The notes beneath the pieces are model-generated. The model ran no database searches. It was not told where the DNA came from and saw nothing but the letters and a program-made list of their open reading frames with translations. Shown piece by piece: positions 18,534-36,248 of a stretch of 64,000 nucleotides of DNA; the stretch's first letter is position 1, and every line of letters starts with the position of its first letter. The position numbers were made by a program, and so were the translations under genes. Source of the stretch: Candidatus Levyibacteriota bacterium. Its GTDB lineage: Bacteria; Patescibacteriota; Microgenomatia; Levybacterales; UBA12049. The stretch spans positions 40,566 through 104,565 of the forward strand of contig CAVRKE010000002.1 of NCBI GenBank assembly GCA_963722305.1. The letters run 5' to 3'.

Positions 18534-19454
18534 ATGAATAGTCCGAAACCAAGCCTTCACAAGCTTATCTATCACCACTTAAGATATACCAGACCACAAT
18601 GGTATAGGGATTACCACAAGTGGAAACACGTTGATACCCTGCATTGGCTGACGCTTATTTTTTCCTCCTTTGCAATTGTGGTCGGATTTATGAACGCCTT
18701 ATTGTTAATACAACAGTCTCCCTTGAATTCTACTTATGCCGCTTCCGGAACAACCACTATCAGTCAGCAAGTTAACGCCGGAACGCTCAATATCAGTACC
18801 AATACCAGTTCTACCTTAACGGCCGTGACTGTCAACGCCACCTCCAGCCAATCTTCTACCGGTAACCTTGGCACATTAACTGTTACCGATAACCGGGGTT
18901 CGGGTGTCGGCTGGTCTTCAACCGCCACCAGTAGCGACTTCACCTTTATTAACGCGGCGGTAAAAGTGTCCGGCTCAAATAGTACGGTCACTTCCGGAGG
19001 AACCTATACTAATTCAACCGCCGGCACTTATACGATTACCATTACTACCGGCGGAGCGGTTGGGGTGGCCAAATTTAGCGTAGCGGGCTTAGAATCCGCC
19101 TCCAACCAGACTACCGGCACAGGAGTAGCTATTGGCACCAGAGGCGTAACCGCGACTTTTGGTACCGCCACCTACGCACTTAGCGATTCCTGGACGATTC
19201 GGGTGGATACAATACCGGTAACTAATTTAATGCTTACTCCCAATACTTTTACCACCGTCGCCGGTTCCTCAACCGGTGTTAGTAACGGAACCGCGCATAC
19301 TTTTACCACCACTTCAGACCCGGCAACTATCATTACCGCCTCCTCGGGCAACGGAATGGGCTCTTATTCGGATAATCCGGCCCTACAGCTGACTGTTCCG
19401 GCTGCATCTTATGCAAATTCTTATACGGCAACCATTACCGAAACCGTCAATTAA
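18534..19454 (+). CDS. WxL-like cell-surface protein (CscB-like paralogue)
   Basis: Paralogue of the 13428 gene: DNRGSGVGWSSTATSSDF and ALQLTVPAASYANSYTATI. Confidence 0.5.
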   Translation: MNSPKPSLHKLIYHHLRYTRPQWYRDYHKWKHVDTLHWLTLIFSSFAIVVGFMNALLLIQQSPLNSTYAASGTTTISQQVNAGTLNISTNTSSTLTAVTVNATSSQSSTGNLGTLTVTDNRGSGVGWSSTATSSDFTFINAAVKVSGSNSTVTSGGTYTNSTAGTYTITITTGGAVGVAKFSVAGLESASNQTTGTGVAIGTRGVTATFGTATYALSDSWTIRVDTIPVTNLMLTPNTFTTVAGSSTGVSNGTAHTFTTTSDPATIITASSGNGMGSYSDNPALQLTVPAASYANSYTATITETVN

Positions 19455-19458
19455 AAAT

Positions 19459-21051: not shown

Positions 21052-21116
21052 TAAAAATTGCTGATTAGAAAGTTTTTCTTTTACCCGAAGCCTCTTAAAC
21101 TTTATAAAATAACGGC

Positions 21117-21647
21117 TTATATTTGCGGTGTGGCAACGGCAACAAACCTCTTGCTATCCAAAAACCCGGTGCAGGTATAAATGGTGATTCTACTGTCTTT
21201 TGTTTGCGCTAAAATATGCGTCTCATTGGGGTCGACTACCGAAGTAAACTGAATCACAAACGTTCTTGTTTGCCCGTTATTTAGAACAATTTGAATCGTT
21301 TGCCCCGGTTTCATATTAGTCAATTTACCCAGCAGACTTATCCAATTATGTCCGTATAAAATGCTGTTGCCTCTGGCGCCCGGAACCGGAGAGGATAAAA
21401 GATAAGAAATACCCTTATCGGTTGTTTCCCATTGCCCGTTGGTAATTTTTGCACCATAGATTCCTTCGTCTATTTTTTGTGACGGGATAATTATCCTCAC
21501 GGGAATTAAATTTGAACTCGAAGCACTAACTACTTTTAGATTGTTGAATTCAATTGTTTTTGGACTGTAACGCTGAAAAACCAAGTAGGCACCAAAAAGT
21601 AGTAATAATAGGCCTGAGAAAATTAGAAATTTAGAAGAGAGGCTCAT
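21117..21647 (-). CDS. Sortase (small, class A/E-like)
   Basis: N-terminal TM anchor. Catalytic His in ILYGHNW, Cys in RITIYTCTG (TLxTC-type), Arg in KRFVAVA. Confidence 0.75.
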   Translation of the reverse strand: MSLSSKFLIFSGLLLLLFGAYLVFQRYSPKTIEFNNLKVVSASSSNLIPVRIIIPSQKIDEGIYGAKITNGQWETTDKGISYLLSSPVPGARGNSILYGHNWISLLGKLTNMKPGQTIQIVLNNGQTRTFVIQFTSVVDPNETHILAQTKDSRITIYTCTGFLDSKRFVAVATPQI

Positions 21648-21660
21648 TTTTTCCTTCCTT

Positions 21661-22302
21661 TTATTGCTTTTTCTTTAAAGCCGAAAGAACTCCGCCGCCA
21701 AGCAAAGCCAGCCCCAAGGTGAATACGCTTAAGATAAAGACGATGTTACCGGTTGAAGCCAGTCCAAGCACTGCTTGTGTTGAAGCAGCTAAAACCTGCG
21801 GTGCCTGGGTGCATGACGGACAACTGGATAATCCATCACTTCTTCCGTCTCCACCGCCGCCTCCGCCACCGCCGCCACCCGAATTTGAAGAAGGAGCGCT
21901 GCAGCTATAGCTTAAGTTTTGGGCCAAATAAGGAGCTGCTTCTAATCCCCAGGCCGAACCGTCGGGGATATAAATCCAACCCTGATTAACTAAAACGTCT
22001 TTTTGGTCCTCTGTTAAACTGGATATTTTCCACCAGTTGGTTTGTATTCCACCACCGTTAACGGTACATAAACACTGCGTGACGGTTGCCTCATCCAAAG
22101 TATAAACCGTATCGCTTCCTGTATAAGTGGTGCTGTCTCCCGGTACGCCATGGACTCCGTCCGCGTAGCTTACCGTTACATCTCCTTGGGGATTAAGACA
22201 AGCGGGAAAAGTGGGAGAAACTACGGCGTATGCCGGTCTAACAAAAGCCGATAATAAAATTGCTATTGACAATACCTGTAAAAATAAATACTTGCCTGAC
22301 AT
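21661..22302 (-). CDS. Secreted Cys-containing protein with poly-Gly tract and C-terminal LAxTG-type sorting signal (putative sortase substrate)
   Basis: Signal peptide. GGGGGGGGGGG tract. C-terminus LASTG + hydrophobic segment + KKKQ. Confidence 0.5.
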   Translation of the reverse strand: MSGKYLFLQVLSIAILLSAFVRPAYAVVSPTFPACLNPQGDVTVSYADGVHGVPGDSTTYTGSDTVYTLDEATVTQCLCTVNGGGIQTNWWKISSLTEDQKDVLVNQGWIYIPDGSAWGLEAAPYLAQNLSYSCSAPSSNSGGGGGGGGGGDGRSDGLSSCPSCTQAPQVLAASTQAVLGLASTGNIVFILSVFTLGLALLGGGVLSALKKKQ

Positions 22303-22604: not shown

Positions 22605-22847
22605 ATGGCACAAACACATCTTGTAAACGCTAAAGGGAATATTCATTCAACCAAAACGGTTTCGGATCACTTGATGCAAGAGCTGATTAGCGCCATGAAA
22701 GACGTGGACGCTTTTGGTAGCGTGGAGATTATGATTCAAGATTATGCGGTGACGCAAATAACGCACCGTTGCATTAGAAAAACAAATGGCTTCCATGAGG
22801 AAGAAACCATAAAGAAAATGAGTTACAAAATGCACCCGGAAGAATAA
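22605..22847 (+). CDS. Small YezD/DUF2292-like protein
   Basis: 80 aa. GSVEIMIQDYAVTQITHRCIRKT resembles the YezD motif. Followed by a strong terminator. Confidence 0.4.
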   Translation: MAQTHLVNAKGNIHSTKTVSDHLMQELISAMKDVDAFGSVEIMIQDYAVTQITHRCIRKTNGFHEEETIKKMSYKMHPEE

Positions 22848-22884
22848 TCTAAAGAAAAGCAGAGGTTATGCCGACCGCAACCGG

Positions 22885-22917
22885 AGGCACCCGTCGAAGA
22901 GGGTGCCTTTTTTTTTA
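22885..22917 (+). terminator. Intrinsic terminator AGGCACCC-GTCGAAGA-GGGTGCCT + T9
   Basis: Read from the sequence. Confidence 0.7.
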
Positions 22918-23009
22918 TTTAAAAATTAAACAAAAATATGTAGATTGATATACAAACAATATGGGATATAAATAAACATAAGTAAAAATAGACATATATC
23001 ATTTTATCA

Positions 23010-23273
23010 TTGACAAACTTAGCAGAATATGATATATATAAACACTCTGTCTTAACTATGAGATATAATAGTGGCAATAACGGTACTAATAAATTCCTGA
23101 CTGTACAGGAAGTCTCTTCTCTTCTGCGTCTGAGCATGCTGACGATTTATAAGTATATTAAAGAAGGAAAAATCTCCGTCGTCGAATTTGGCGGCCACTA
23201 CCGAATCAGCACTGCCTCACTAAATACTTTCATTCAAGAACATACTTTCGAAGAGAAAAAGGAGGAAAAGTAA
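23010..23273 (+). CDS. Excisionase-family helix-turn-helix DNA-binding protein
   Basis: FLTVQEVSSLLRLSMLTIYKYIKEGKISVVEFGGHYRISTASLNTFIQ (HTH_17/excisionase-type). Ends 1 nt before the GT megagene. Confidence 0.55.
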   Translation: MTNLAEYDIYKHSVLTMRYNSGNNGTNKFLTVQEVSSLLRLSMLTIYKYIKEGKISVVEFGGHYRISTASLNTFIQEHTFEEKKEEK

Positions 23274-23274
23274 G

Positions 23275-26274
23275 ATGAAAACCCGAGAAATAAGCGTGGT
23301 TATACCTATCTATAATGAGGCGAAAAACTTGCCGGAACTAATTACGCGTCTTGAACAAGCGCTTGATAAAACCGGGAAAAAATATGAATTGCTGTTTATT
23401 GACGACCATTCGACTGATGATACGGACAAAGTTTTTCAGGCACGAAAAGACGACCAAAATTTAGTCTTGCTTAAAAAGAAAGGCCAAAAAGGCAAAGCTT
23501 ATTCGCTTACGGAAGGTTTTGCTGCTGCCACAGGGGACGCGGTCGTCATGATTGATGCGGATTTACAGTATCCGCCGGAAGCAATCCCCGGAATGGTAGA
23601 AGCTTTGGAAAATGCGGATATCGTAGTCGCCAACAGGAAAAACTATCAAGATTCCCTGCTTAGAAAAGCGCTGAGCAGGACTTTCAGGTTTGGCTTTGGC
23701 AGACTGCTTTTCGGGCTTAACCACGATATTCAATCGGGCCTGAAAGTTTTTTCCCGCGACGTTATTCAAACGATTAATTTTGCGCCTGCATCCGCGTGGA
23801 CTTTTGATTTGGAAATGCTGCATATCGCCCGACATGCGGGATACTCCATAAAAAACTTTGACATTGATTTTGAAAGAAGAAAAAACGGGCATTCAAATGT
23901 TAATGTGCTTAAAACTGCTTTTGAAATTGGCTTTAATTCCCTAAAGCTGCGGACAAAACGGCTTAGTCCCATAACCGTTAAACCGCAAAACGCCGGAAAT
24001 ATGCTTGGAGCAGGTGTTAGGTATAAAAAAAGAGTTTACGTCACACATACGACGCTGTCCCATCATGTGTCCGCACTAAGGACATTTACCTTTTTACAAA
24101 AAGGCATTATCACGCTTTTCCTGATTACTATAATAGTAGGGCTTGCCTTAAAGCCCCTGTTTACCCTTCAAGCTTTAGTGGCTCTTTTAAGCCTGATCTA
24201 TTTTATTGATGTTTTCTTTAATCTTTTTCTGATATTAAAAAGTCTTTCTTTCCCTCAGGAAATTGTTTCTACAGATAAAGAATTGGCCCAAATTAACGAT
24301 AAAGACTTACCGGTTTACACAATTCTTTGTCCTTTATACCGGGAGGCCCATGTTATTCCGCAGTTTATGAATGCGATTAGAAAGCTTTCTTATCCTCGGG
24401 AGAAACTGGATGTAATTCTGCTTTTGGAAGAAGACGACGAAGAATCGATTGCGTCTGTGAAAAAAATGAGATTGCCTGCCTTTGTACGTACCGTTATTGT
24501 TCCTCATTCTATTCCAAAAACCAAGCCGAAAGCCTGCAATTACGGGTTAGCTTTTGCCCGGGGAGAATATTTGGTTATTTTTGATGCCGAAGATATTCCC
24601 GAGCCGATGCAGCTTAAAAAAGCCGTCTTAGGCTTTCAGAAAGTGCCGGCCAATACAATTTGCCTTCAGGCAAAACTTAACTATTATAATCCGCACCAAA
24701 ATCTTTTAACGCGCTTTTTTACCGCCGAGTATTCTTTATGGTTTGACGTAACCCTAACCGGACTGCAATCCATTAACACCACTATTCCTTTGGGAGGAAC
24801 TTCAAACCATTTTAAGATTGAAAGCCTGCGGAAAGTAGAAGGCTGGGATCCGTTTAACGTCACCGAAGACGCGGACCTGGGCATGCGGCTTTTTAAGCGG
24901 GGCTACAAAACCGCCATTATTGACTCCATAACACTTGAGGAAGCAAACAGCAAATACGGCAACTGGCTAAGACAGCGCTCCCGATGGATAAAAGGCTACA
25001 TGCAGACCTACCTGGTGCATGTTCGGGAAACTCTTTCTTTTACTAAAGAGCAGGGCATTCATTCGCTTATTTTTCAGCTTATTATCGGCGGGAAAATCGC
25101 CTTTGTTCTCATTAATCCCCTTTTGTGGCTGGCGACCATTGCCTATTTTACGCTTTACGCTTTTGTCGGTCCGCAGATAGAAGCTTTATACCCGTCGGGC
25201 GTGTTTTACATGGCCGTCGTCTCTTTAGTTTTTGGGAATTTCTTGTTCCTTTACTACTACATGATTGGCGTTGCCAAAAAAGAGCAATGGACGCTGATGA
25301 AGTTTGTTCTTTTAATCCCGATTTACTGGCTGATGATAAGCGTTGCCGCGTTTATCGCTTTATACCAACTGATTTTTAAACCGCATTATTGGGAAAAAAC
25401 AGTGCACGGATTCCATCTTGCGCCAAGTAAAAAAGTTCCGGCCGTTTTCGCTACTGCCATTGCTACGGAAGAAGTCATTTATCTAGCTCCTTTCAGATGG
25501 AGGGCTTTACCAGAAAAAATCGCAACCAGGATAGTGTTTGTTCAAAGCAAAATAATAGAATCGGGGCTAAAGCTCTCCTTACTGATAACAACAGCGATAA
25601 CTACGCTCTTGGATAAAAAGAATTTATACCTTAGTGGAGTCTTATTAATAAGCGCTACGATGACGTCTAACATTCTGAACTTAATCTTTAATATTTATTT
25701 AGGCAGAGCGCTGAGCCTTGAGGAGTTTGGTGAAATAAGTTTATTTACTAGCCTTTTGTACTTAGTTTCTATTCCTTTGGGATCTTTTTCGTCTACGATT
25801 TCGCACAACATTGCCTACCTGTATGGCAAACAATCTAAAGAACATGCACAGGGATACCTTAAATATATTTTTAGAAAATCTCTTGTTTTTGGAATTATTC
25901 TTAGCACGTTATGGTTTTTGCTAACTCCATTTTTGTCAAAGTTTTTCCAGACCGAGTCTCTGGTTCCGATCATCCTTTTTTCACCAATTTGGTTTATAAA
26001 CGTAGCCAGTTCTAATTTCTCAGGATTTTTTGCGGGAACATTATCTTTCGGGAAAAAAGGGTTGATACTTCTGACAGAGTCGGTCGCCAGGCTAATACTG
26101 GCAATTTTATTGGTTTCTGCCGGCTTTTCAAATATTGTATTCTTGGCGATTGTTTCATCTTTAAGCATATCGGTTATAGTCGGTTGGTTATTAGCAAAAG
26201 GGGATCAGGCAAAAGAAGTATCCGTAGCGGACAGAAAGTTTAATTTTACCTTTCTTTCTAACTTCCAATCTTAA
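23275..26274 (+). CDS. Multidomain glycan-synthesis protein: DPM1-like GT2, cellulose-synthase-like processive GT2 (QxxRW), then the N-terminal half of a Wzx-type flippase
   Basis: Domain 1: VVIPIYNEAKNLPEL...LLFIDDHSTDDT...MIDADLQYPPE. Domain 2: YTILCPLYREAH...IFDAEDIPEP...QRSRWIKGYMQ. Flippase start: LGRALSLEEFGE with 6 TMs. The flippase continues out of frame in the next ORF. Confidence 0.7.
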   Translation: MKTREISVVIPIYNEAKNLPELITRLEQALDKTGKKYELLFIDDHSTDDTDKVFQARKDDQNLVLLKKKGQKGKAYSLTEGFAAATGDAVVMIDADLQYPPEAIPGMVEALENADIVVANRKNYQDSLLRKALSRTFRFGFGRLLFGLNHDIQSGLKVFSRDVIQTINFAPASAWTFDLEMLHIARHAGYSIKNFDIDFERRKNGHSNVNVLKTAFEIGFNSLKLRTKRLSPITVKPQNAGNMLGAGVRYKKRVYVTHTTLSHHVSALRTFTFLQKGIITLFLITIIVGLALKPLFTLQALVALLSLIYFIDVFFNLFLILKSLSFPQEIVSTDKELAQINDKDLPVYTILCPLYREAHVIPQFMNAIRKLSYPREKLDVILLLEEDDEESIASVKKMRLPAFVRTVIVPHSIPKTKPKACNYGLAFARGEYLVIFDAEDIPEPMQLKKAVLGFQKVPANTICLQAKLNYYNPHQNLLTRFFTAEYSLWFDVTLTGLQSINTTIPLGGTSNHFKIESLRKVEGWDPFNVTEDADLGMRLFKRGYKTAIIDSITLEEANSKYGNWLRQRSRWIKGYMQTYLVHVRETLSFTKEQGIHSLIFQLIIGGKIAFVLINPLLWLATIAYFTLYAFVGPQIEALYPSGVFYMAVVSLVFGNFLFLYYYMIGVAKKEQWTLMKFVLLIPIYWLMISVAAFIALYQLIFKPHYWEKTVHGFHLAPSKKVPAVFATAIATEEVIYLAPFRWRALPEKIATRIVFVQSKIIESGLKLSLLITTAITTLLDKKNLYLSGVLLISATMTSNILNLIFNIYLGRALSLEEFGEISLFTSLLYLVSIPLGSFSSTISHNIAYLYGKQSKEHAQGYLKYIFRKSLVFGIILSTLWFLLTPFLSKFFQTESLVPIILFSPIWFINVASSNFSGFFAGTLSFGKKGLILLTESVARLILAILLVSAGFSNIVFLAIVSSLSISVIVGWLLAKGDQAKEVSVADRKFNFTFLSNFQS

Positions 26275-26302
26275 CGGAATTTCCCTTATTACCTTTCTTA
26301 CT

Positions 26303-26914
26303 TTGGATGTTATTCTGGTAAAACACTTTTTAACTCCAACGGCAGCGGGCCAATATGGGCTTCTGTCTTTAATTGGGAAAATGACTTACTTTCTCGGCTC
26401 GTTATTCGTACCTTTTGTAATCCCGATAATCTCTCACCATGAGGGAGCAAAGAAGAACAGCGAGCAGGTTTTTCTATTCCTCTTTGCTACAACATTTGCC
26501 TTTTGCGCCGCTTCATTTGTGGGACTGGGTTTATTGGGACAATACATTGTTCCGCTAATTTTTGGGGCAAAAACCCAAGCAATCATTCCCCTTCTGGCGC
26601 CATACGTTTTAGCCATGGCAATTTTTACAATATCGCAGCCTATTGTTTCCTATTTCCAGGCTAAAGAGAATTACTCTTTTACAATAGTCGGATTTTTAGT
26701 TGCACTTATCCAAATCGGTCTAACCTGTTTATTCCATGAAAACCTTGAGCAAATAGTTTTAGTCATGCTTACCACAAGCATTATTAATCTCACTTTAATG
26801 GCCCCGCTTTACGCTTTTCAGAAAGAAGTTAAAATAATAACTTCAAATCTTAAGGACTTTTACGGTCTCTTTAACTCTGTAAGGTGGAGAAAAAACCTGA
26901 ATACAATCCTTTAG
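26303..26914 (+). CDS. C-terminal half of the Wzx-like flippase (out of frame with the upstream ORF; frameshift or sequencing error)
   Basis: VILVKHFLTPTAAGQYGLLSL... is the polysacc_synt_C-type region. Deleting one T from TTTT at about 26243-26247 restores a continuous ...DRKFNLPFFLTSNLNGISLITFLTLDVILVKHFL... reading frame. Confidence 0.55.
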   Translation: MDVILVKHFLTPTAAGQYGLLSLIGKMTYFLGSLFVPFVIPIISHHEGAKKNSEQVFLFLFATTFAFCAASFVGLGLLGQYIVPLIFGAKTQAIIPLLAPYVLAMAIFTISQPIVSYFQAKENYSFTIVGFLVALIQIGLTCLFHENLEQIVLVMLTTSIINLTLMAPLYAFQKEVKIITSNLKDFYGLFNSVRWRKNLNTIL

Positions 26915-26929
26915 ACAAACTCAGAATTC

Positions 26930-28012
26930 TTGATTCTTAACTGGAGGGATACAAAGCATAAATGGGCAGGCGGAGCGGAGGTTTACGTCCATGAGCTGGC
27001 TAAACTTTGGGTCAAAGACGGAAATAGCGTCACGCTTTTTTGCGGAAACGATGGCCATGAGGTAAGAAACGAAGTCATTGACGGCATCCAAATCTACAGA
27101 CGCGGAGGGTTTTACACTGTTTATGTTTGGGCGCTTTTGTATTACCTGTTTCGCTTCAGGGGAAAATATGATGTGATTATTGATTCGGAAAACGGCATTC
27201 CCTTCTTTAGCCCGCTCTATGCAAATATTCATAAGTTTTTGCTTATTCATCATGTTCATCAGGAGGTGTTTAGAAAAAGCTTAAGGTGGCCGCTTTCAAC
27301 CATCGCCTTGTTCTTGGAGGCAAAGCTGATGCCTCTGGTTTACAGAAATGTACAGGTGGTCACTGTTTCACCTTCTTCCAAAGAGGAAATATTAAGGCAT
27401 GGGCTTACCAAAAAGGAACCACTCACTATTTATAACGGGGTTGACACTCTCAAGTTTAAACCCGGCCAAAAAAGCGAAAAACCGTTAGTCTTATACCTGG
27501 GAAGACTGCAGCGCTACAAGAGTTTGGATATTTTTATCAAAGCGGCTAAAGGAATTTTAGCACAAATTCCGGAGACTGAATTTGTCATTGCCGGAGAAGG
27601 AGGAGAAAAGATGCATCTAATTAAATTAGCCAAAAAAATGGGAATTTTAGACAAAATTAAATTCACCGGAAAAGTAACCGAGGAGGAAAAAATTGCACTT
27701 TTCCAAAAAGCCTGGGTTTTCATGAATCCCTCACTAATGGAAGGCTGGGGCATTACCACTATCGAGGCAAATGCCTGCGGTACACCAACCATCGCTTCCA
27801 ATGTTCCCGGGCTTAGGGACTCGGTCAGCAATTTAAAAACCGGAATTCTTGCCGATTATGGAAATAATGAAGCTTTTGCCCAAGACGCGATTATTCTTCT
27901 TCAAGACAAAATTTTAAGGAAAGAAATGTCTTTAAACGCTATTGAATGGGCCAAAAATATAGCTGGGAACAAAGCGCAATGGTCTTCTATGAGACATTAT
28001 CAAATCACTTAG
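26930..28012 (+). CDS. GT4 family glycosyltransferase
   Basis: Glycos_transf_1 motif EGWGITTIEANACGTPTIASNVPGLRDSV. Confidence 0.8.
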   Translation: MILNWRDTKHKWAGGAEVYVHELAKLWVKDGNSVTLFCGNDGHEVRNEVIDGIQIYRRGGFYTVYVWALLYYLFRFRGKYDVIIDSENGIPFFSPLYANIHKFLLIHHVHQEVFRKSLRWPLSTIALFLEAKLMPLVYRNVQVVTVSPSSKEEILRHGLTKKEPLTIYNGVDTLKFKPGQKSEKPLVLYLGRLQRYKSLDIFIKAAKGILAQIPETEFVIAGEGGEKMHLIKLAKKMGILDKIKFTGKVTEEEKIALFQKAWVFMNPSLMEGWGITTIEANACGTPTIASNVPGLRDSVSNLKTGILADYGNNEAFAQDAIILLQDKILRKEMSLNAIEWAKNIAGNKAQWSSMRHYQIT

Positions 28013-28084
28013 AAAGAAATCCAATCGTAAGAAGCAATGGATTAGCTTACGTACTGAACAGGTTTATGTCTTTATTGTAAAAAT

Positions 28085-29068
28085 ATGAAAAAATTAAAAA
28101 TCGCAATTATGGATATGGACAATCTTAAAAATCCTTTTTGGGGAGCCGGCCAAGCTAGGGTAACTAGAGAAGTGGGTAAAAGACTAGCAAAGAAGCATGA
28201 TGTAATTGTTTACAGCTCTAAATATCCCGGATATAAAGATTATGTTGAAGACGGAATAGTCTATAAACATATCGGAATAGTCAGTAAGAGCTCTAAGCTA
28301 ACAAACATTGCCTACTTATTAAGCGTTCCTTTGCAGGTCAGAAAAATAAAAGATGCCGATATTATTATTGAAGAATTTAACGCGCCAATTTCGGTAAGTT
28401 TTTCTCCGCTTTTTACAAAAATACCGATAATTGCGATTCCGACTATTTTTGCGGCAGAAAAATTTGCTAAGAAATATCATCTGCCTTTTGATTGGGTGGA
28501 GGCTATAGGCGTAAAATTGTATAAATATTTCCTGCCCTATTCTGCTACTGACAGCGGCAAAATAAAAAGACTGCATCCGAAAGCAATATATAAGATTGTA
28601 CCGGTAGGAGTCGGAGAAGAATATTTTGCCATAAAACATCTTAAGCCGGAATATATTCTGTTTTTAAGCAGATTTGATATCCACCAAAAGGGACTTGACT
28701 TGCTTTTGGACGCTTATGCAAAAATTTCCGATAAAATCGGCTATCCGCTTGTGCTGGCTGGGCACGGCTCAGACGAGCAAAAAGTCAGAGCCTTAATAAA
28801 GGAATTAAAACTTGAGAAAAAAATTAGCATAGTTGGTCCGGCATATGGGAAAAAGAAATTTGATTTAATCTCAAAAGCCATCTTTGTGGCGTTTCCTTCT
28901 AGATTTGACGAGTTATCTCTCTGGGCTCTTGAAGCATTGGCGTCGGGAATGCCTTTAGTGGCCTTTGATATACCTGAAGCAAACTGGTCGGACAAAAAGC
29001 GTCGCCTTAAAAGCAAAACCATTCGATACGGACGAATACGCAAAACTAATGCTAAAAGCAACGGATAA
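28085..29068 (+). CDS. GT4 family glycosyltransferase, with apparent frameshift near 28993-28997 (A5)
   Basis: FPSRFDELSLWALEALASGMPLVAFDIPEA is the GT4 EX7E region. The C-terminal tail is nonsense. The true C-terminus continues in the ORF at 28965-29201. Confidence 0.65.
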   Translation: MKKLKIAIMDMDNLKNPFWGAGQARVTREVGKRLAKKHDVIVYSSKYPGYKDYVEDGIVYKHIGIVSKSSKLTNIAYLLSVPLQVRKIKDADIIIEEFNAPISVSFSPLFTKIPIIAIPTIFAAEKFAKKYHLPFDWVEAIGVKLYKYFLPYSATDSGKIKRLHPKAIYKIVPVGVGEEYFAIKHLKPEYILFLSRFDIHQKGLDLLLDAYAKISDKIGYPLVLAGHGSDEQKVRALIKELKLEKKISIVGPAYGKKKFDLISKAIFVAFPSRFDELSLWALEALASGMPLVAFDIPEANWSDKKRRLKSKTIRYGRIRKTNAKSNG

Positions 29069-29201
29069 AAATCTCAATCAAACAATGCGCATAGCCGCAC
29101 GTAATTTGGCGAGAAAATATAACTGGGACGAGGTAACAAAAGATTTCGAAGACTTTTTCAAAGAAGTATTCAAAAGGGAGGGTAAATATGTACAAAGATA
29201 A
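28965..29201 (+). CDS. Displaced C-terminal segment of the preceding GT4 gene
   Basis: KSVALKAKPFDTDEYAKLMLKATDKNLNQTMRIAARNLARKYNWDEVTKDFEDFF is a typical GT4 C-terminus. Removing one A at 28993-28997 would join it to the upstream ORF. Confidence 0.45.
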   Translation: MIYLKQTGRTKSVALKAKPFDTDEYAKLMLKATDKNLNQTMRIAARNLARKYNWDEVTKDFEDFFKEVFKREGKYVQR

Positions 29202-29994
29202 AGTTTTTGTAACAAAAACATTTTTACCTCCGCTTGAGGAATATGTCAAATACTTAGAAAAAGTTTGGGATTCACGCTGGCTGACAAACAATGGGCAATT
29301 GGCCGTAGAGCTGGAAAATAAGCTGAGCGAATATCTTGGAGTCAAGCATGTAATTTTTGTCTCAAACGGAACAATCGCGATTCAGATGGCAATTAAAGCT
29401 CTGGATATTAAAAAAAGTATTATTACTACCCCACTCACTTTTATTGCTACCACTTCTTCTATTCTTTGGGAGAAATGCAAACCTGTTTTCGTTGACGTTG
29501 ATCCGAATACCTTTTGTATTGACCATACAAAAATAGAAGCAGCTATAACCGAAGACACAGAGGCAATCCTTGCCGTACACGTTTATGGATATCCCTGTAA
29601 CGTTAAAGAGATTGAAAAAATAGCCAGAAAACATAATCTAAAAGTTATTTATGATGCGGCACATGCCTTTGGAGTGAAAATTGATGGAGAATCCATATTT
29701 AAATTCGGCGATATCTCAACCCTTAGCCTGCATGCCACTAAACTTTTTCATACCGCTGAGGGGGGACTCGTCCTGACAAACAATGACGCATTGGCAAAAA
29801 AAATTGAACTGCTTAAGGATTTTGGCCTGGAAGGAGAAAACCCAATAGAAATAGGTATTAACGGAAAAAATTCCGAACTGCATGCGGCCCTGGGTTTAGC
29901 AAATTTTAAGCACCTAGACGAAATTAGAGAGTGCAGAAAAAAATTGTCGAAAAATACAAGGAACTGCTTTCGGGAACTAATCTTCATAATGTAA
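29188..29994 (+). CDS. DegT/DnrJ/EryC1/StrS-family PLP-dependent sugar aminotransferase (N-terminal ~250 aa; frame lost at an A7 tract 29937-29943)
   Basis: SLHATKLFHTAEGG contains the PLP lysine. The C-terminal 20 aa are nonsense after the A7 run. Confidence 0.7.
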   Translation: MYKDKVFVTKTFLPPLEEYVKYLEKVWDSRWLTNNGQLAVELENKLSEYLGVKHVIFVSNGTIAIQMAIKALDIKKSIITTPLTFIATTSSILWEKCKPVFVDVDPNTFCIDHTKIEAAITEDTEAILAVHVYGYPCNVKEIEKIARKHNLKVIYDAAHAFGVKIDGESIFKFGDISTLSLHATKLFHTAEGGLVLTNNDALAKKIELLKDFGLEGENPIEIGINGKNSELHAALGLANFKHLDEIRECRKKLSKNTRNCFRELIFIM

Positions 29995-31184
29995 GCTACT
30001 TTAATAACGTTGAATATAATTACGCTTATTTCCCGATTGTCTTTACTACGGAAAGCGATTTATTAAAAGCTGAAAAAGCACTTCGAGAACAAAATATCTT
30101 TGCCAGAAGATATTTTTATCCTTCCTTAAATACACTACCGTTTGTGGAATATATGCCATGCCCGAATTCCGAATCTATCGCAAAAAGAATTCTGTGTCTT
30201 CCTTTATATCACGATCTTCCGCTTGAAAAAGTCGAAGAAATAGCCGGCATTATTAAGGAAACTTTAGAAAAAAATAAACCGACTTTAACTGTCGGCATTC
30301 CTGCCCATAACGAGGAAGAAAATATCGTTAATTTAATTCAAGCAATATTAAACCAAAAAGACGGAAATTACGCTCTTCAAGAAATAGTTATTGCTTCCGA
30401 TGCCTCTACCGATAAAACAGTTTCTTTGGTAAATGAACTTCGGAAAAAAGACCCGAGAATAAAAGTTATTGGGAGTGAGACAAGAAGAGGCAAAACCTAT
30501 CGCTTAAATGAATTATACACCATGCATAATAGTGATTTTATTCTGACTTTGGATGGTGACGTTTTATTAAAAGATTCCGACTCTATTGAGAAAATGGTCA
30601 ATATCTTTTTGGAGGATAAAGATGCCTGCGTAGTCGCTGGTCATTTAAGACCGATTAAACCTGAGTCGTTTATTGGTAAGGTAATTTATACAAGCGACGT
30701 TTTGTGGGATACGGTAATAACGCAGATTAATAATGGAGACCATATTGCAAATCTTTATGGAGCCGCCCACATGTTAAGGAAAGATTTTTCAAAATCTTTT
30801 GTGTATCCGACAAATATTAGCTGCGATGAGGAATATCTATATATAAAGGCTAAAGAGAAGAATGGATTCCGCTACGCCAGAAATGTGTATATTCTATTTA
30901 TGGCGCCGGCAACCATCAAAGAAGTTATTTTGCAAGGCAGGAGGGCCTTAAAAGAGCGAAAAGCTTTAGTTGAAATATTTGGCAATGCTGTCCTTAAACT
31001 TCATCACGTTCCCATAAAATATAAACTTCAGGGGATCTTAAAAATGTTAGGTTCTAGCCCATTGTATACGATTTTATCCTTGTTACTAATGCTCGTTATA
31101 AAAGTTTTTCCATATGAAGATTCCCTTAATAAACAGGGGATGTGGCAAATTGCTTCTTCGACAAAGACTGTCACTGAAGCGTAA
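29931..31184 (+). CDS. DegT aminotransferase C-terminal domain fused in frame to a GT2 glycosyltransferase
   Basis: N-terminus KIVEKYKELLSG...ILCLPLYHDLPLEKVEEIAGI is the DegT C-terminus. TLTVGIPAHNEEENI...IASDASTDKT is a GT2, with no stop or start codon between them. One extra A in the A7 tract would give ...ECRKKIVEKYKELL... in frame with the 29188 ORF. Confidence 0.7.
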   Translation: MQKKIVEKYKELLSGTNLHNVSYFNNVEYNYAYFPIVFTTESDLLKAEKALREQNIFARRYFYPSLNTLPFVEYMPCPNSESIAKRILCLPLYHDLPLEKVEEIAGIIKETLEKNKPTLTVGIPAHNEEENIVNLIQAILNQKDGNYALQEIVIASDASTDKTVSLVNELRKKDPRIKVIGSETRRGKTYRLNELYTMHNSDFILTLDGDVLLKDSDSIEKMVNIFLEDKDACVVAGHLRPIKPESFIGKVIYTSDVLWDTVITQINNGDHIANLYGAAHMLRKDFSKSFVYPTNISCDEEYLYIKAKEKNGFRYARNVYILFMAPATIKEVILQGRRALKERKALVEIFGNAVLKLHHVPIKYKLQGILKMLGSSPLYTILSLLLMLVIKVFPYEDSLNKQGMWQIASSTKTVTEA

Positions 31185-31191
31185 ATAAACT

Positions 31192-32085: not shown

Positions 32086-32089
32086 GAAT

Positions 32090-33028: not shown

Positions 33029-34558
33029 ATGAAAAGAATTTATTTAATATTTACTGTAATTATAATCATTCTGACAATTGCTTTTTTGACAGTGGCTATA
33101 CGTGGTAAAGCAGGTAATCCTATTGCTTATCAATCGGATTACAATACACAGCTCGGAGGACCATTTGAAGCTTCAAATAGCACTTCCAGATATGCTTTGA
33201 CTGAGGCAATAGTTAAAACCGGAACTTTTTTTCTCAATCCTACCCTTGCCCAATTTGGTTCTCCGGATGTAATTGTAAATAAAAAAGGGCAATATATTTC
33301 TATATTTACTCCGGGAGTATCCTTTATTGCAGTTCCATTTTATATTTTAGGTGAAAATTTTGGAATGCCGCAATTATTCACTTATTTATCTGTTTTCTTA
33401 ATTTCGGTTTTGAATGCTTTTTTAATCGCCAGATTGGCCTACAAGCTTGGGGCGAAATATTATACAAGTCTTTTAAGCGGTCTCATTTTTTTGTTTGCGA
33501 CAAATGCCCTACCGTATTCACAAACCCTCGCCCAGCATCAAGCCAGCGTTCTCGTAATTTTATTAAGCTTATTAAGCATATTTAGTCCCCCAACTTTACT
33601 CAAGAACATCATTCTAGGAATGCTATTTGGAATAGGAGCTTTAATTGACGTACCTAATGCTTTCTTTTTAATGCCCATCTTAATCTACGTTTTATTTCAG
33701 GATTTTAATCTCGAATCCAACGGTAAAAAGTTGGTTATGTTTTTCAAATTAAATATTTTAGGTCTTATTATAGGAGTAATTCCGTTTCTTGTGTTATTTG
33801 GTGTTTACAATAATATTACCACCGGGTCCTATTTTAAACTGGCACAAACAGGTGGACAACGCTTCTCGGTTACATCCGTAAACGGAAAAGCACCCGTAAG
33901 CACCTCAAATACATCTAATGGAACATTCTTTCTGCCATTTAACACTAGATATCAACTGAACGGCTTGTACACTTTGTTAATAAGTAATGAAAGAGCTTGG
34001 ATATATTATAGCCCCATTCTCTTCTTAGGACTTTTGGGAATTTTTGTTCTTTATAAAAATAGGAAGAATGATAAAGTTGCCATCATAATGGCATCCGTTA
34101 TCTTGACGAATATTATTGTCTATTCAATGTTTTCTGATCCATGGGGCGGATGGGCTTTCGGACCAAGATACCTAATACCAAGCGCTGCAATATTAAGCAT
34201 CTTTATTGGTATCGCCATAGAAAGGTACAAGCAAAATATTTTTTTCGCGGTAATCCTATTTGTTTTAACGGCATATAGTATTTTTGTAAGTTCTCTAGGA
34301 GCATTCACTACCACTGCTATTCCTCCAAAGCAGGAAGCGGAACATTTAATTACCCCTATTCCTTATACCTATCAGTATAATTTGGATTTACTCAACAAAA
34401 ATTTTTCAAGTTCTTTAATCTATAATTTGTACGTACCAAAAATAATAACTCCGCGAAACTTTTTATACATTTATACCGCGCTATTACTCCTCTTCTTTAG
34501 CGGAATTTACACTGCAGCCATAGTTGATAAGAACGAACAAGGAGAAGAAAATGAATAA
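33029..34558 (+). CDS. GT-C fold polytopic membrane glycosyltransferase (ArnT/PMT-like)
   Basis: 509 aa, about 12 TMs. First-loop region SRYALTEAIVKTGTFFLNP resembles the ArnT/PMT loop motif. Confidence 0.5.
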   Translation: MKRIYLIFTVIIIILTIAFLTVAIRGKAGNPIAYQSDYNTQLGGPFEASNSTSRYALTEAIVKTGTFFLNPTLAQFGSPDVIVNKKGQYISIFTPGVSFIAVPFYILGENFGMPQLFTYLSVFLISVLNAFLIARLAYKLGAKYYTSLLSGLIFLFATNALPYSQTLAQHQASVLVILLSLLSIFSPPTLLKNIILGMLFGIGALIDVPNAFFLMPILIYVLFQDFNLESNGKKLVMFFKLNILGLIIGVIPFLVLFGVYNNITTGSYFKLAQTGGQRFSVTSVNGKAPVSTSNTSNGTFFLPFNTRYQLNGLYTLLISNERAWIYYSPILFLGLLGIFVLYKNRKNDKVAIIMASVILTNIIVYSMFSDPWGGWAFGPRYLIPSAAILSIFIGIAIERYKQNIFFAVILFVLTAYSIFVSSLGAFTTTAIPPKQEAEHLITPIPYTYQYNLDLLNKNFSSSLIYNLYVPKIITPRNFLYIYTALLLLFFSGIYTAAIVDKNEQGEENE

Positions 34559-36248
34559 AATTAAAAAATATCAAACAACAATAAAGAGTTTTTTTCAAAC
34601 TTTTGCTGTTCCATGGATCAGCAAAAACGAGATGGAAATAGATATCCCCCTCAATGAAGAGGCTAATAGTAAGGTTTTAAATATTTTAAAAACACATACG
34701 GTTTTGTTTTTACTTATCATCTTATCGGTGGTATCAATTACCAGTTTTATCGTCTTCTACTTTAACCACTTGGGCTTGGCTTATAATGACGCCCGCTCAC
34801 ATCTTGACATCGGACGGCGTGTGGTGGAAGGATTAAAACCCGGTTTTGCACAACTCGGAAGCGTTTGGCTTCCCCTACCCCATCTTTTAATGGTTTTAAC
34901 TATCTGGAATGATTTCATGTGGCATTCTGGTCTTGCCGGTGCTTTACAGTCAATGATTTCCTTTGTGGCAACCGGCTATTTAATTTATCTGTTTCTTAAA
35001 AAATTAGGCGTTGGACTGGTTGGCCGGTTGGTCGGTGTTTTTATTTTTGCGGCCAACCTGAATATTTTGTATTTACAATCCACCGCTATGACAGAACTCT
35101 TACTGATCGCCACCATGATGGCCGGGGTTTATGAGCTCTTAAACTGGTTTAATAACGATAAAATTTTAAGTTTGATAAAAGCGGCTTTTTGGATTATGCT
35201 TTCAACCTTAATCCGCTACGACGGCTGGTTCTTGCTGGTCCTGGCAACCTTGCTTATCGGAATTCAGGTGCTGCGTAAAAAAGGCTATAAGGCCTCCGAA
35301 GGCACTGTGATTTTGTTTGCAACCCTGGCCGGCTTTGGAATAGTGTTATGGGTTTTCTGGAATTGGTTAATTTTTAAAGACCCTTTGTATTTTATTTTCG
35401 GCCCTTATGCCGCTGCTACACAGCAACAGCAACTGGCAGCGGCCGGAGTGCTTGCAACCAAGGGGAATTTATTATTCTCCATAAAAGTATATCTTTACGC
35501 TTTACTCTATAACTCCAACGCCTTCGTGACAATTCTTGGCACAATCGGAGCAATTGTCTTCTGGTTTGATAAAAGAATAAATCTTTCGGTAAAAATTGGC
35601 TCGCTGACGCTTTTGGCGCCGCTGATTTTTAATATTCTCGCTCTCTATCTTGGCCAGTCCGTACTTTTTATCCAGGGCCTATCCGGAAACACCTGGTTTA
35701 ACGTCCGCTACGGAATAATGGTTATGCCGTCCATTGCCATATTCATCGGCTATCTTGTCAACAGATTTAAAGACCTGCGTGCAGTAATGATTGGACTGCT
35801 ATTGTTTGTGCTTTTCTTTTCGTTTGCCAATGCCGATGCGGTAACAATTGACGATGCCAGAGTCGGTTCCAGCCAGAAAAATGTCTCGGAAGTTTCCGGC
35901 TGGCTTAATAAAAATGCCAAGGATAAGCCGGGGTTTGTTTTAATCTCTGCCGCCAGCCATGACGCGGTTATTTTTTCCTCCGGCCTGCCGATGAGCAAAT
36001 TTATTCATGAAGGAACGGGTGAGTATTGGCTTGATGCCACCACCTCACCTGACAGATGGGCACGCTGGATTGTGATGCGCACAAATGATGTAAATGACTC
36101 AACGTTTAAACTGGTGAGTAAATCGACTGCCTACAGAAATGGCGACTATACTTTAGTTAACCACTATCCTTTTGCCGATATCTATCAGTTGAAACCGCAA
36201 TTTATTAAGTATTTGCACACCACGCCTATTTTGGGCAAACAAAGATGA
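34551..36248 (+). CDS. Polytopic membrane protein with C-terminal soluble domain, GT-C-like (putative glycosyltransferase)
   Basis: First-loop motif YNDARSHLDIGRRVVEG...LGSVWLPLPHLL, multi-TM core and about 150-aa C-terminal extracellular domain. Probable start ATG 34551 behind AAGGAGAAG. The ORF track gives 34524. Confidence 0.4.
   Translation: MNKIKKYQTTIKSFFQTFAVPWISKNEMEIDIPLNEEANSKVLNILKTHTVLFLLIILSVVSITSFIVFYFNHLGLAYNDARSHLDIGRRVVEGLKPGFAQLGSVWLPLPHLLMVLTIWNDFMWHSGLAGALQSMISFVATGYLIYLFLKKLGVGLVGRLVGVFIFAANLNILYLQSTAMTELLLIATMMAGVYELLNWFNNDKILSLIKAAFWIMLSTLIRYDGWFLLVLATLLIGIQVLRKKGYKASEGTVILFATLAGFGIVLWVFWNWLIFKDPLYFIFGPYAAATQQQQLAAAGVLATKGNLLFSIKVYLYALLYNSNAFVTILGTIGAIVFWFDKRINLSVKIGSLTLLAPLIFNILALYLGQSVLFIQGLSGNTWFNVRYGIMVMPSIAIFIGYLVNRFKDLRAVMIGLLLFVLFFSFANADAVTIDDARVGSSQKNVSEVSGWLNKNAKDKPGFVLISAASHDAVIFSSGLPMSKFIHEGTGEYWLDATTSPDRWARWIVMRTNDVNDSTFKLVSKSTAYRNGDYTLVNHYPFADIYQLKPQFIKYLHTTPILGKQR

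What the first reader, a model, noticed from the sequence alone, without database searches (positions are those of the whole stretch)
23010..26914. Excisionase-type HTH gene abutting a GT2-GT2-Wzx triple fusion
A small excisionase-family HTH protein ends 1 nt before a 999-codon ORF. That ORF fuses a DPM1-like GT2, a processive cellulose-synthase-like GT2 (QRSRW) and the first six helices of a Wzx-type flippase. The flippase C-terminal half follows in another frame. A single polypeptide with two transferases and the flippase would be an unusually compact glycan assembly line. An Xis-like HTH as its putative regulator is also unusual.
Basis: partly seen in the sequence, partly recalled or inferred. 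Interest (0 to 1): 0.5.

Follow-up and report, generated by a model that had tools for sequence, protein, structure and literature searches.

The report
Frameshift-broken four-domain glycan synthase–flippase gene
The "triple fusion" is a copy, broken by single-base indels that are probably sequencing errors, of a roughly 1,600-residue protein common in Patescibacteria that joins three sugar-transferring enzymes and a lipid-sugar flippase and is led by a small, conserved DNA-binding gene; the family is uncharacterised but built from known parts.

Summary
An HTH_17 gene stops 1 nt before a 999-codon ORF (GT2 + cellulose-synthase-like GT2 + half of a Wzx/MOP flippase), and the other flippase half lies in another frame.

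- In relatives the gene is one ORF of about 1,570-1,600 aa with four domains (GT2a-GT2b-MOP flippase-GT4). This holds in 44 of 79 fetched loci, out of more than 570 matches across Patescibacteria.
- In the window this gene (23275-28080) is cut by four 1-nt indels, near 26251, 26895, 26932 and 27952. Two more hit the next two genes.
- A 93%-identical sister contig is in frame at all four sites but has its own private indels.
- A 99.9%-identical sibling assembly lacks the window's fifth indel and has two of its own.
- The breaks are therefore most likely long-read consensus errors, not biology.

The HTH gene (true start 23058) is a conserved operon leader. Starting from HTH homologues, three of three look-ups land directly upstream of this glycosyltransferase family.

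My inferred mechanism has three parts: GT2a loads a sugar onto polyprenyl phosphate, the MOP domain flips it, and a conserved Pfam-less GT-C protein (34551-36248) uses it outside the membrane. GT2b polymerises a β-glycan. Biochemistry is untested.

The parts
22883..22920 (+). Intrinsic terminator of the upstream gene. It marks the start of a new transcription unit.
   Evidence: 10-bp GC-rich stem followed by a T9 run.
22960..22978 (+). Upstream copy of a direct repeat (TATGGGATATAAATAAACA). The second copy, 23026-23044, overlaps the -10 region. This is a candidate operator; function not shown.
   Evidence: repeats D1/D2. A similar motif sits about 95 nt before the HTH ATG in L046, L067, L021 and L003.
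23010..23039 (+). Promoter-like element: TTGACA (23010-23015), 14 nt, then TGATATATAT (23030-23039).
   Evidence: The same TTGACx-N14-TGnTATAnAT layout lies 25-30 nt before the HTH ATG in orthologous loci. Inferred from conservation, not tested.
23058..23273 (+). HTH_17 (excisionase-family / MerR-like) DNA-binding protein of 71 aa, the first gene of the operon.
   Evidence: Pfam, TIGR01764. The start codon aligns with the Met of 17 orthologues. The gene is always directly upstream of the GT gene.
23275..28080 (+). One gene for a GT2a-GT2b-MOP-GT4 membrane protein of about 1,601 aa, read as four pieces in the window because of four 1-nt indels.
   Evidence: Four single-base repairs give an uninterrupted 1,601-aa ORF ending in the conserved tail LAYVLNRFMSLL*. 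Homologues of 1,540-1,650 aa share 50-70% identity.
23275..23964 (+). GT2a: a polyprenyl-phosphate glycosyltransferase-like GT-A domain (DPMS/ArnC/GtrB type), aa 1-230.
24097..25416 (+). GT2b: a membrane-embedded synthase-like GT2. It has two N-terminal TM helices, a catalytic domain with DAED/TED/QRSRW, C-terminal TM helices and the invariant PHYWEKTVHG motif (aa about 275-714).
25615..26860 (+). MOP/Wzx-type flippase domain. The N-lobe is in frame 1 up to 26250 and the C-lobe is in frame 2 from 26254.
26251..26253 (+). Lesion 1: an extra T (ACCTT[T]CTTT), frame 1 to frame 2. It creates the TAA at 26272-26274 that ends the '999-codon ORF'.
   Evidence: The sister contig L081 has ACC-TTCTTTCTA and reads ...KFNFTFFLTSNLNG....
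26890..26896 (+). Lesion 2: one base missing after the A6 run, frame 2 to frame 1. Staying in frame 2 runs into the TAG at 26912.
   Evidence: KKPEYNPLDKLRIL is in frame 1. L081 has AAAAAATCCT here.
26930..26932 (+). Lesion 3: an extra G (CTT[G]ATT), frame 1 to frame 2.
   Evidence: Homologues read LRILILNWRD. L081 has CTT-ATT.
26933..28080 (+). GT4 (GT-B) glycosyltransferase domain plus the conserved C-terminal tail. Stop codon TAA at 28078-28080.
   Evidence: PF00534, E 1e-43, and PF13439. The EGWGITTIE motif is conserved. The domain is 83% identical to that of P0002.
27952..27957 (+). Lesion 4: an A missing (A5 here, A6 in L081), frame 2 to frame 1. It puts the last 44 residues out of frame.
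28085..29201 (+). A second GT4 gene (371 aa when repaired), broken by lesion 5, an extra A in the run at 28994-28998.
   Evidence: The sibling assembly L082 (99.88% identical) has A4 and an intact ORF.
29188..31184 (+). DegT aminotransferase-GT2 fusion gene (665 aa when repaired), broken by lesion 6. The window has A7 at 29937-29943, and A8 would restore the frame.
   Evidence: L006 encodes this fusion as a single ORF. The same A7 is present in L082.
34551..36248 (+). Conserved Pfam-less membrane protein with a predicted GT-C fold. It is the proposed extracytoplasmic user of the flipped lipid-linked sugar.
   Evidence: Homologues share 68-89% identity, and 21 lie on the same contigs as the GT fusion. 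The AF2 model (pLDDT 71.5) gives top Foldseek hits that are all GT-C enzymes: STT3, ALG12, ALG9, ArnT, DPY19, Emb and PMT.

Best explanation
Window 23010-28080 is a two-gene operon head from a Microgenomates-type (Levybacteria-like) Patescibacteria genome.

**The genes.** A 71-aa HTH_17 DNA-binding protein (23058-23273) is followed, with translational coupling, by one gene of about 1,601 codons (23275-28080). That gene encodes a four-domain inner-membrane protein:
- GT2a, a DPMS/ArnC/GtrB-like polyprenyl-phosphate sugar transferase.
- GT2b, a BcsA/HAS/PgaC-like membrane-embedded synthase with the D,D,D,QxxRW signature.
- A Wzx-like MOP flippase.
- A GT4 glycosyltransferase.

**The breaks.** The 999-codon ORF and the 'flippase half in another frame' arise from four single-base indels in this one gene. 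Two more indels hit the next two genes. They are most likely consensus errors of a long-read metagenome assembly, not a biological split.

**Shown by computation:** the domain identities, the conservation of the single-ORF architecture, the positions of the indels, their absence in sister and sibling assemblies, and the HTH linkage.

**Inferred mechanism:**
1. GT2a charges polyprenyl phosphate with a sugar on the cytoplasmic face.
2. The MOP domain flips this lipid-linked sugar, or a GT4-extended version of it.
3. The conserved neighbouring GT-C protein (34551-36248) transfers it to an extracytoplasmic acceptor.
4. GT2b polymerises and extrudes a β-linked glycan that could be that acceptor.
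5. The HTH protein regulates the operon from a conserved promoter and repeat region.
For: **Architecture**
- More than 100 homologues of 1,540-1,650 aa carry GT2+GT2+Polysacc_synt+GT4 Pfam domains.
- At least 572 genome loci matched.
- 44 of 79 fetched loci hold all parts in one ORF.
- All three catalytic motif sets are conserved.
- Fold matches to each domain class are given.

**Lesions**
- Four 1-nt repairs restore one 1,601-aa ORF.
- Domains after the breaks are as conserved as those before them, with identity ratios of 0.95-1.02.
- L081, 93% identical at the nucleotide level, is in frame at all four sites. Its protein P0310 reads through lesions 1-3. L081 also has at least five private frame-breaking indels elsewhere.
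- L082 is 99.88% identical and differs from the window by 5 SNPs and 3 one-nt indels. Each indel breaks an ORF in only one of the two assemblies.
- Both sister contigs carry 'contig_N' names from ENA analyses. I read these names as typical of a long-read assembler.
- About 250 homopolymers of 6 nt or more elsewhere in the window sit in intact ORFs, so the problem is local.

**HTH**
- It lies adjacent upstream in 15 of 54 loci and nowhere else in those loci.
- Three of three look-ups started from HTH homologues land 1-3 nt upstream of the fusion or of its modules.

**Mechanism**
- A GT-C-fold neighbour shares contigs with the fusion.
- A Ktedonobacterales protein fuses GT2a-GT2b directly to a PMT_2 GT-C domain.
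- No phosphoglycosyl transferase or Wzy was found among the window ORFs scanned.
- There is a precedent in GacI (GtrB-type GT2), GacK (Wzx-family) and GacL (GT-C) (bioRxiv 10.1101/180810).
Against: - No reads are available, so error versus real mutation is not proven.
- Lesion 6 (A7 in DegT) is shared by two assemblies. It could be real or a systematic homopolymer undercall.
- Lesion 3 is not in a homopolymer.
- Broken copies without N-gaps also occur in other MAGs (L069, L040), so natural inactivation of this gene does happen or is at least mimicked.
- The six lesions cluster in 3.7 kb and I can only guess at the cause.
- The mechanism is inference from domain homology and gene linkage. Sugar specificity, the lipid carrier, the flipped substrate and the acceptor are all unknown.
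- pTM of the three-domain model is only 0.62, so inter-domain geometry is uncertain.
Confidence: 0.75

Rival explanations
1. The indels are real. This strain has recently inactivated, or phase-varied off, the flippase-GT4 part of the gene and the two following genes. It keeps a truncated GT2a-GT2b product, an architecture that exists naturally elsewhere.
For: - GT2a-GT2b-only proteins occur naturally (P0101, L086).
- Several lesions sit in A-runs, the classic slippage substrate.
- Lesion 6 is shared by two assemblies.
- Other MAGs carry non-homopolymer disruptions of this gene (L069).
- The region downstream of 28278 is strain-variable.
Against: - There is no sequence decay after the breaks.
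- Lesion 5 is absent from a 99.88%-identical assembly, and that assembly has its own ORF-breaking indels. The ratio of 3 indels to 5 SNPs is much higher than I would expect from natural variation.
- The 93% sister contig has a comparable density of private indels at different sites.
- The lesion zone starts mid-domain and ends mid-gene rather than at module boundaries.
- Six simultaneous 'off' switches are not how phase variation works.
Confidence: 0.2
2. One reading: a genuine GT2-GT2-half-Wzx polypeptide, with the other flippase half and the GT4 made as separate proteins that assemble.
For: - The ORFs exist as read.
- TTG start codons are available at 26303 and 26930.
Against: - No relative is split inside the flippase. 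Natural splits lie after GT2b or remove the whole MOP domain.
- The other apparent mid-gene breaks in fetched loci are runs of N.
- The 26303 ORF loses part of helix 7.
- The linker KKPEYNPLDKLRIL and the conserved C-tail are readable only in other frames.
Confidence: 0.03
3. Programmed ribosomal frameshifting or stop-codon recoding joins the pieces during translation.
For: Lesion 1 lies at UUU-C, where tRNA-Phe could in principle slip +1.
Against: - Four shifts of alternating sign would be needed in one gene.
- Homologues, including the 93% sister contig, are simply in frame at these sites.
- No conserved slippery site or stimulator is present.
- The stops involved are TAA and TAG, and ordinary code 11 fits the rest of the window.
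Confidence: 0.02

Closest known systems
Three-component extracytoplasmic glycosylation systems (GtrB-GtrA-GtrV; CsbB/GtlA-GtcA-YfhO; GacI/GacJ-GacK-GacL of the Streptococcus group A carbohydrate)
   Same: There is a GtrB/DPMS/ArnC-type GT2 that would make polyprenyl-P-sugar, a flippase, and a GT-C enzyme nearby. As with GacK, the flippase is of the Wzx/MOP family.
   Different: Here the GT2 and the flippase are one polypeptide, together with a synthase-type GT2 and a GT4. The GT-C partner belongs to no Pfam family. No biochemical data exist.
Synthase-dependent polysaccharide synthases (BcsA, PgaC/IcaA, hyaluronan synthase, NodC, chitin synthase)
   Different: It scores far below the PgaC_IcaA and CelA equivalog cutoffs (117 against 422 bits; 72 against 699 bits). 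It has no PilZ domain, and no PgaD- or BcsB-type partner was seen among the window ORFs scanned. It is fused to three other modules. Processivity and product are unknown.
Wzx/Wzy-dependent pathway flippases (WzxE, O-antigen and capsule Wzx, MurJ)
   Same: The MOP fold and the Polysacc_synt/Polysacc_synt_3 membership match. The flippase is the most variable domain of the fusion.
   Different: No initiating phosphoglycosyl transferase or Wzy polymerase was found in the window. The flippase is covalently tied to glycosyltransferases.
Multi-catalytic glycosyltransferase fusions (K4CP chondroitin polymerase, PmHS2 heparosan synthase) and the ypfP-ltaA glycosyltransferase-flippase gene pair
   Same: Several glycosyl-transfer activities sit in one chain (K4CP was the top Foldseek hit). 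I cite the ypfP-ltaA pairing of a cytoplasmic GT with a lipid-sugar flippase from my own knowledge.
   Different: The polymerase examples I know of are soluble or peripheral two-domain enzymes, and the flippase pairing is between separate genes. I found no described protein that combines a polyprenyl-P GT2, a synthase GT2, a MOP flippase and a GT4 (literature searches).
Excisionase-family (HTH_17 / TIGR01764) DNA-binding proteins
   Same: The domain match is above the curated cutoffs.
   Different: No recombinase is adjacent. The gene is a conserved first gene of glycan operons in a Patescibacteria clade. It should be treated as a small transcription factor, not an excisionase.

Membership tests
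Polyprenyl-phosphate glycosyltransferases (DPMS/GtrB/ArnC-type GT2) | GT-A fold with a DxD motif | tested here: met
Polyprenyl-phosphate glycosyltransferases (DPMS/GtrB/ArnC-type GT2) | Membrane anchoring by TM helices following the catalytic domain | tested here: met
   Two long helices at about aa 275-327 directly follow GT2a.
Polyprenyl-phosphate glycosyltransferases (DPMS/GtrB/ArnC-type GT2) | Transfers a sugar from a nucleotide sugar to polyprenyl monophosphate | not testable with these tools
   Needs an enzyme assay. NCBIfam ArnC scores 104 bits against a cutoff of 529, so it is not an ArnC equivalog.
Processive membrane-embedded GT2 synthases (BcsA/HAS/PgaC/chitin synthase) | D,D,D,Q(Q/R)xRW signature including TED | tested here: met
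   DAED, TED and QRSRW are invariant in 102-109 homologues.
Processive membrane-embedded GT2 synthases (BcsA/HAS/PgaC/chitin synthase) | Catalytic domain flanked by TM helices that resemble the synthase channel | tested here: inconclusive
Processive membrane-embedded GT2 synthases (BcsA/HAS/PgaC/chitin synthase) | Membership of a named equivalog (PgaC_IcaA, CelA) | tested here: not met
   117 bits against a cutoff of 422, and 72 bits against 699. It is a separate subfamily.
MOP superfamily / Wzx-type (PST) flippases | Pfam Polysacc_synt / Polysacc_synt_3 above the gathering score over both lobes | tested here: met
MOP superfamily / Wzx-type (PST) flippases | MOP fold of 12-14 TM helices | tested here: met
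MOP superfamily / Wzx-type (PST) flippases | Translocates a lipid-linked saccharide | not testable with these tools
   Needs a flipping assay or genetics.
GT4 (GT-B, retaining) glycosyltransferases | Glyco_transf_4 N-domain, Glycos_transf_1 C-domain and the E-x7-E motif | tested here: met
   PF13439 and PF00534 (E 1e-43). EGWG.T.IE is conserved.
Excisionases (Xis) of mobile elements | HTH_17 / TIGR01764 DNA-binding domain | tested here: met
Excisionases (Xis) of mobile elements | Partner integrase or recombinase and a mobile-element context | tested here: not met
   No recombinase lies in the flanking genes. The only transposase-like ORF is 15 kb away. Orthologues always sit upstream of the GT gene.
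Programmed ribosomal frameshift genes | The shift site is conserved in orthologues | tested here: not met
   Orthologues and the 93% sister contig are in frame.
GT-C glycosyltransferases (for the neighbour 34551-36248) | GT-C fold with a conserved acidic first extracytoplasmic loop | tested here: inconclusive
   The top 12 Foldseek hits are all GT-C (probability 1.00) but TM is only 0.35-0.52, and the model's pLDDT is 71.5 with the key loop at low confidence. YNDARSHLDIGRR is invariant. There is no Pfam hit.

The most novel reading that the evidence does not exclude
In most Microgenomates a single polypeptide physically couples four activities: synthesis of a polyprenyl-phosphate sugar (GT2a), a synthase-type polymerase (GT2b), a Wzx-like flippase and a GT4. 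It works with a previously unclassified, highly conserved GT-C enzyme. Together these would form a covalently channelled surface-glycan assembly line, under a dedicated HTH_17 regulator, that builds a major envelope polymer of these ultra-small bacteria. If true, it would be a natural system in which a MOP flippase is hard-wired to the enzymes that make its substrate. That would make flippase-substrate coupling directly testable.
Probability: 0.3. Interest if true: 0.6.

Novelty: new variant of a known kind. Interest (0 to 1): 0.4.

Why it matters
**For this window.** The lesson is practical. The odd ORF structure most likely reflects indel noise in a long-read MAG, and annotation should treat 23275-28080 as one gene.

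**For biology.** The intact family is a widespread, unnamed four-enzyme fusion in Patescibacteria. It is linked to a conserved Pfam-less GT-C-like protein and a dedicated small HTH gene.

Very little is known experimentally about the envelope glycans of these episymbiotic bacteria. A single protein that makes, flips and perhaps polymerises lipid-linked sugars is a compact target for heterologous expression and cryo-EM. It could show how Wzx-type flippases are coupled to their substrates. All parts belong to known families, so this is a new arrangement rather than a new principle.

Tried and rejected
- **Programmed frameshift or recoding:** rejected because orthologues are in frame.
- **A natural split inside the flippase:** rejected. 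The only similar-looking breaks in relatives (L019, L024, L057) are runs of N.
- **Globally error-ridden sequence:** rejected. About 250 long homopolymers elsewhere lie in intact ORFs, and other adjacent ORF pairs proved to be complete separate genes.
- **Sequence decay after the breaks:** looked for and not found.
- **Source record:** look-ups by exact protein for P0001 and for the 203-aa and 177-aa flippase fragments returned nothing. No independent same-strain contig covering lesions 1-4 could be found. Only the 93% sister contig covers them.
- **Literature:** five searches for this fusion in Patescibacteria/CPR found nothing relevant.
- **PDB sequence searches for the two downstream membrane proteins:** empty.
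- **Rfam and tRNA scans of the window:** empty.
- **Upstream gene in loci without the HTH:** I looked for another conserved upstream gene and found none.

Full report
**1. What is in the sequence**

Pfam gives HTH_17 for the small ORF. For the 999-aa ORF it gives Glycos_transf_2 at residues 7-165, Glyco_tranf_2_3/Glyco_trans_2_3 at 348-630, and Polysacc_synt at 790-973. The last match covers only profile positions 7-183 of 274. NCBIfam places the small protein in TIGR01764 'excisionase family DNA-binding' above its cutoff.

The HTH stop codon is 1 nt before the ATG of the large ORF, and a Shine-Dalgarno AAGGAGG lies inside the HTH coding end.

**2.

A search of 5.8 billion proteins returned more than 100 homologues at 50-70% identity. 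Nearly all are 1,540-1,650 aa long and carry two GT2 domains, a Polysacc_synt domain and a C-terminal GT4 (Glyco_transf_4 + Glycos_transf_1). They come from Patescibacteria: Levy-, Curtiss-, Davies-, Woese-, Gottesman-, Ames-, Chisholm-, Dojka-, Moran-, Falkow- and Andersenbacteria.

Of the 79 loci fetched, 44 hold GT2a, GT2b, the whole flippase and GT4 in one uninterrupted ORF. Natural variants break only at domain boundaries:
- GT2a-GT2b followed by MOP-GT4 as two genes (L012-14, L017, L031, L066, L048).
- GT2a-GT2b-GT4 without a flippase (L015, L036, L047, L062, P0044).
- GT2a-GT2b alone (P0101).

These are documented. The few loci that look split elsewhere contain runs of N (L019, L024, L057).

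In the window, the ORF after the flippase C-half (26930..28012) is the GT4 domain. The conserved C-terminal tail '...LAYVLNRFMSLL*' is readable in frame 1 up to the TAA at 28078-28080.

**3. Four single-base lesions**

Comparison with homologues locates four frame changes:
1. Frame 1 to 2 at ACCTT[T]CTTT (26251-26253).
2. Frame 2 to 1 just after the A-run at 26890-26895.
3. Frame 1 to 2 at CTT[G]ATT (26932).
4. Frame 2 to 1 at GCC-AAAAA (27952-27957).

Removing or adding one base at each site yields a 1,601-aa ORF with no stop. On that sequence Polysacc_synt_3 matches profile positions 2-290 of 293 straight across lesion 1.

The next two genes are broken in the same way. The second GT4 (28085-29201) has A5 where A4 restores 371 aa. 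The DegT-GT2 fusion (29188-31184) has A7 where A8 restores 665 aa.

No frame change was detected between 23.0 and 26.25 kb or between 30 and 37.2 kb. Other adjacent ORF pairs in the window are complete, separate genes. About 250 homopolymers of 6 nt or more lie mostly in intact ORFs. The lesions are therefore local: six in 3.7 kb.

**4. Error or biology?**

Per-domain identity of the repaired protein to 108 homologues equals the homologue-to-homologue average both before and after the breaks, with ratios of 0.95-1.02. There is no decay.

Cluster look-ups uncovered other assemblies of the same and a sister strain:
- Logan contigs of run ERR11594402 are 100% and 99.93% identical to window 22692-23688 and 30174-33172.
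- ENA contig_122536 (L082) matches 28097-34701 at 99.88%, with 5 SNPs and 3 one-base indels. It has A4 and an intact second GT4 where the window has A5. It lacks a C at two CT[C]AA sites and has a split membrane-protein gene where the window is intact. It shares the A7 in DegT.
- ENA contig_146399 (L081) matches 24357-28278 at 93% nucleotide identity. Its 945-aa product P0310 reads '...ADRKFNFTFFLTSNLNG...' and '...RWRKNPEYNPLAKRILILNWRD...', straight through lesions 1-3. L081 also has A6 at lesion 4. Its own private frame-breaking indels lie at window positions 24391, 24480, 24555, 27444/27466 and 28007.

Three features fit what I expect from long-read consensus error. ORF-breaking indels are private to each assembly. 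The indel-to-SNP ratio is 3:5 between near-identical sequences. The contig names look like those of a long-read assembler.

I put about 75% on artefact and about 20% on real recent inactivation. The case for real inactivation rests on three points:
- Lesion 6 is shared between two assemblies.
- Lesion 3 is not in a homopolymer.
- L069 shows non-homopolymer disruptions of this gene in another MAG.

Programmed frameshifting, or a functional split, gets a few percent. Only reads can settle it.

**5. What the domains are**

PDB and NCBIfam sequence searches agree, but no equivalog cutoff is reached.

Invariant motifs indicate that all three transferases are active: D.DLQYP in GT2a; DAED, TED and QRSRW in GT2b; and EGWG.T.IE in GT4. 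GT2b is the most conserved module (about 75-85%) and the flippase the least (about 35-40%). The best flippase match comes from a different homologue than the best GT match.

**6. Context and proposed mechanism**

Downstream genes are a second GT4, DegT-GT2, two GT2 genes and two large membrane proteins.

The second membrane protein (34551-36248) has no Pfam family. Its model matches only GT-C enzymes at the top of the Foldseek list: STT3, ALG12, ALG9, ArnT, DPY19, Emb and PMT.

A Ktedonobacterales MAG encodes GT2a-GT2b fused directly to a PMT_2 (GT-C) domain in one 1,543-aa protein (L074). No phosphoglycosyl transferase or Wzy was found among the window ORFs scanned.

Together with the GacI/GacK(Wzx)/GacL precedent (bioRxiv 10.1101/180810), this supports the following model, which is inferred and not shown:
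1. GT2a makes a polyprenyl-P-sugar.
2. The MOP domain flips it, possibly after GT4 action.
3. The GT-C protein transfers it outside the membrane.
4. GT2b makes a β-glycan that may be the acceptor.

**7. The HTH gene**

Alignment with 17 orthologues puts the start at ATG 23058 (71 aa). Orthologous loci have the same layout. An intrinsic terminator precedes it.

Within the fetched loci the HTH occurs only directly upstream of the GT gene, in 15 of 54 loci that have upstream sequence. Starting instead from HTH homologues (66 hits, all HTH_17), three of three look-ups gave related results:
- In two cases the gene lies 1-3 nt upstream of a 1,583-1,585-aa fusion.
- In the third case two divergent HTH genes head a GT2a-GT2b gene and a GT4 operon.
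- In all three a sortase gene lies nearby, as in the window.

No recombinase is adjacent. I conclude that it is a dedicated operon-leader DNA-binding protein in a Levybacteria-like clade, not an excisionase. Its regulatory role is inferred.

**8. Verdict**

The fusion is real, conserved and larger than stated. The split is a sequence lesion, most likely an artefact.
- Novelty: a new arrangement of known domain families. It is present in many public genomes under the generic label 'glycosyltransferase'. I found no description of it in the searchable literature.
- Interest is moderate.

Noticed in passing
window 34551-36248 (also 33029-34558): This is a Pfam-less membrane protein that is 68-89% identical across more than 100 Patescibacteria proteins, which makes it more conserved than the glycosyltransferases beside it. 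It has a predicted GT-C fold and an invariant YNDARSHLDIGRR loop. The preceding 509-aa membrane protein hits only NCBIfam 'LA_3751/LA_3752 putative glycosyltransferase'. Together they look like an unclassified GT-C family.
   Followed up: partly
L074:5878-10506 (Ktedonobacterales MAG JBJKSJ010000048.1): A 1,543-aa protein fuses the same GT2a-GT2b pair directly to a PMT_2 (GT-C) domain. This is a Rosetta-stone link between the GT2 pair and polyprenyl-P-sugar-dependent transferases outside Patescibacteria.
   Followed up: partly
window 29188-31184: This is a DegT/DnrJ aminotransferase fused to a GT2 glycosyltransferase (665 aa once an A7 run is read as A8). The same fusion is a single ORF in L006. 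The A7 is also present in the sibling assembly L082.
   Followed up: partly
window 28278 onward versus L081:3918-10848: Homology to the 93%-identical sister contig stops just inside the second GT4 gene. Beyond that point the sister strain carries different genes (GT2, GT2, APH/polysaccharide deacetylase). The region downstream of the fusion gene is therefore a strain-variable glycan island.
   Followed up: partly
window 22960-22978 and 23026-23044; L046, L067, L021, L003 upstream regions: A direct repeat, GATATA(A/T)ATAAACA, occurs once about 95 nt upstream of the HTH start and once over the -10 region. A related motif is conserved at the same distance in orthologous loci. It is a possible operator for the HTH protein.
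   Followed up: partly
L082 positions about 5137 and 5502 (window 33235, 33601): Both private deletions in the sibling assembly remove the C of a CT[C]AA context. This may reflect a systematic, motif-dependent base-calling error.
   Followed up: no
window 47988-50837: A 949-aa ORF combines ADP-forming acyl-CoA synthetase domains (CoA_binding, Succ_CoA_lig, ATP-grasp_5) with C-terminal FAD_binding_6 and NAD_binding_1 domains. It lies directly upstream of 2-oxoacid:ferredoxin oxidoreductase subunits (50850-53451). This is an unusual fusion.
   Followed up: no
window 10890-13335: An ORF with PRC-barrel, MgtE_N and CBS domains but no MgtE membrane domain overlaps the start of a full-length Nramp transporter ORF. 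It may be a regulatory partner or a fusion.
   Followed up: no
window 43595-44197 (-) and 62070-62633 (-): The MFS_1 ORF covers only profile positions 6-171 of 347. A SufBD-core ORF covers only positions 92-232 of 232. These are possible truncated genes or further sequence lesions.
   Followed up: no
window 13428-22302: This is a cluster of WxL / WxL-interacting surface-protein genes, a LytR_C-containing protein, a sortase (21117-21647, -) and a Gly-rich surface protein. A sortase also lies next to the HTH-GT operon in L084, L086 and L087, and in L006, L007, L019, L066 and L068.
   Followed up: partly
window 1-64000: No tRNA gene and no Rfam family reaches threshold anywhere in the 64 kb. An IS1595-type transposase fragment lies at 7359-8165.
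   Followed up: no
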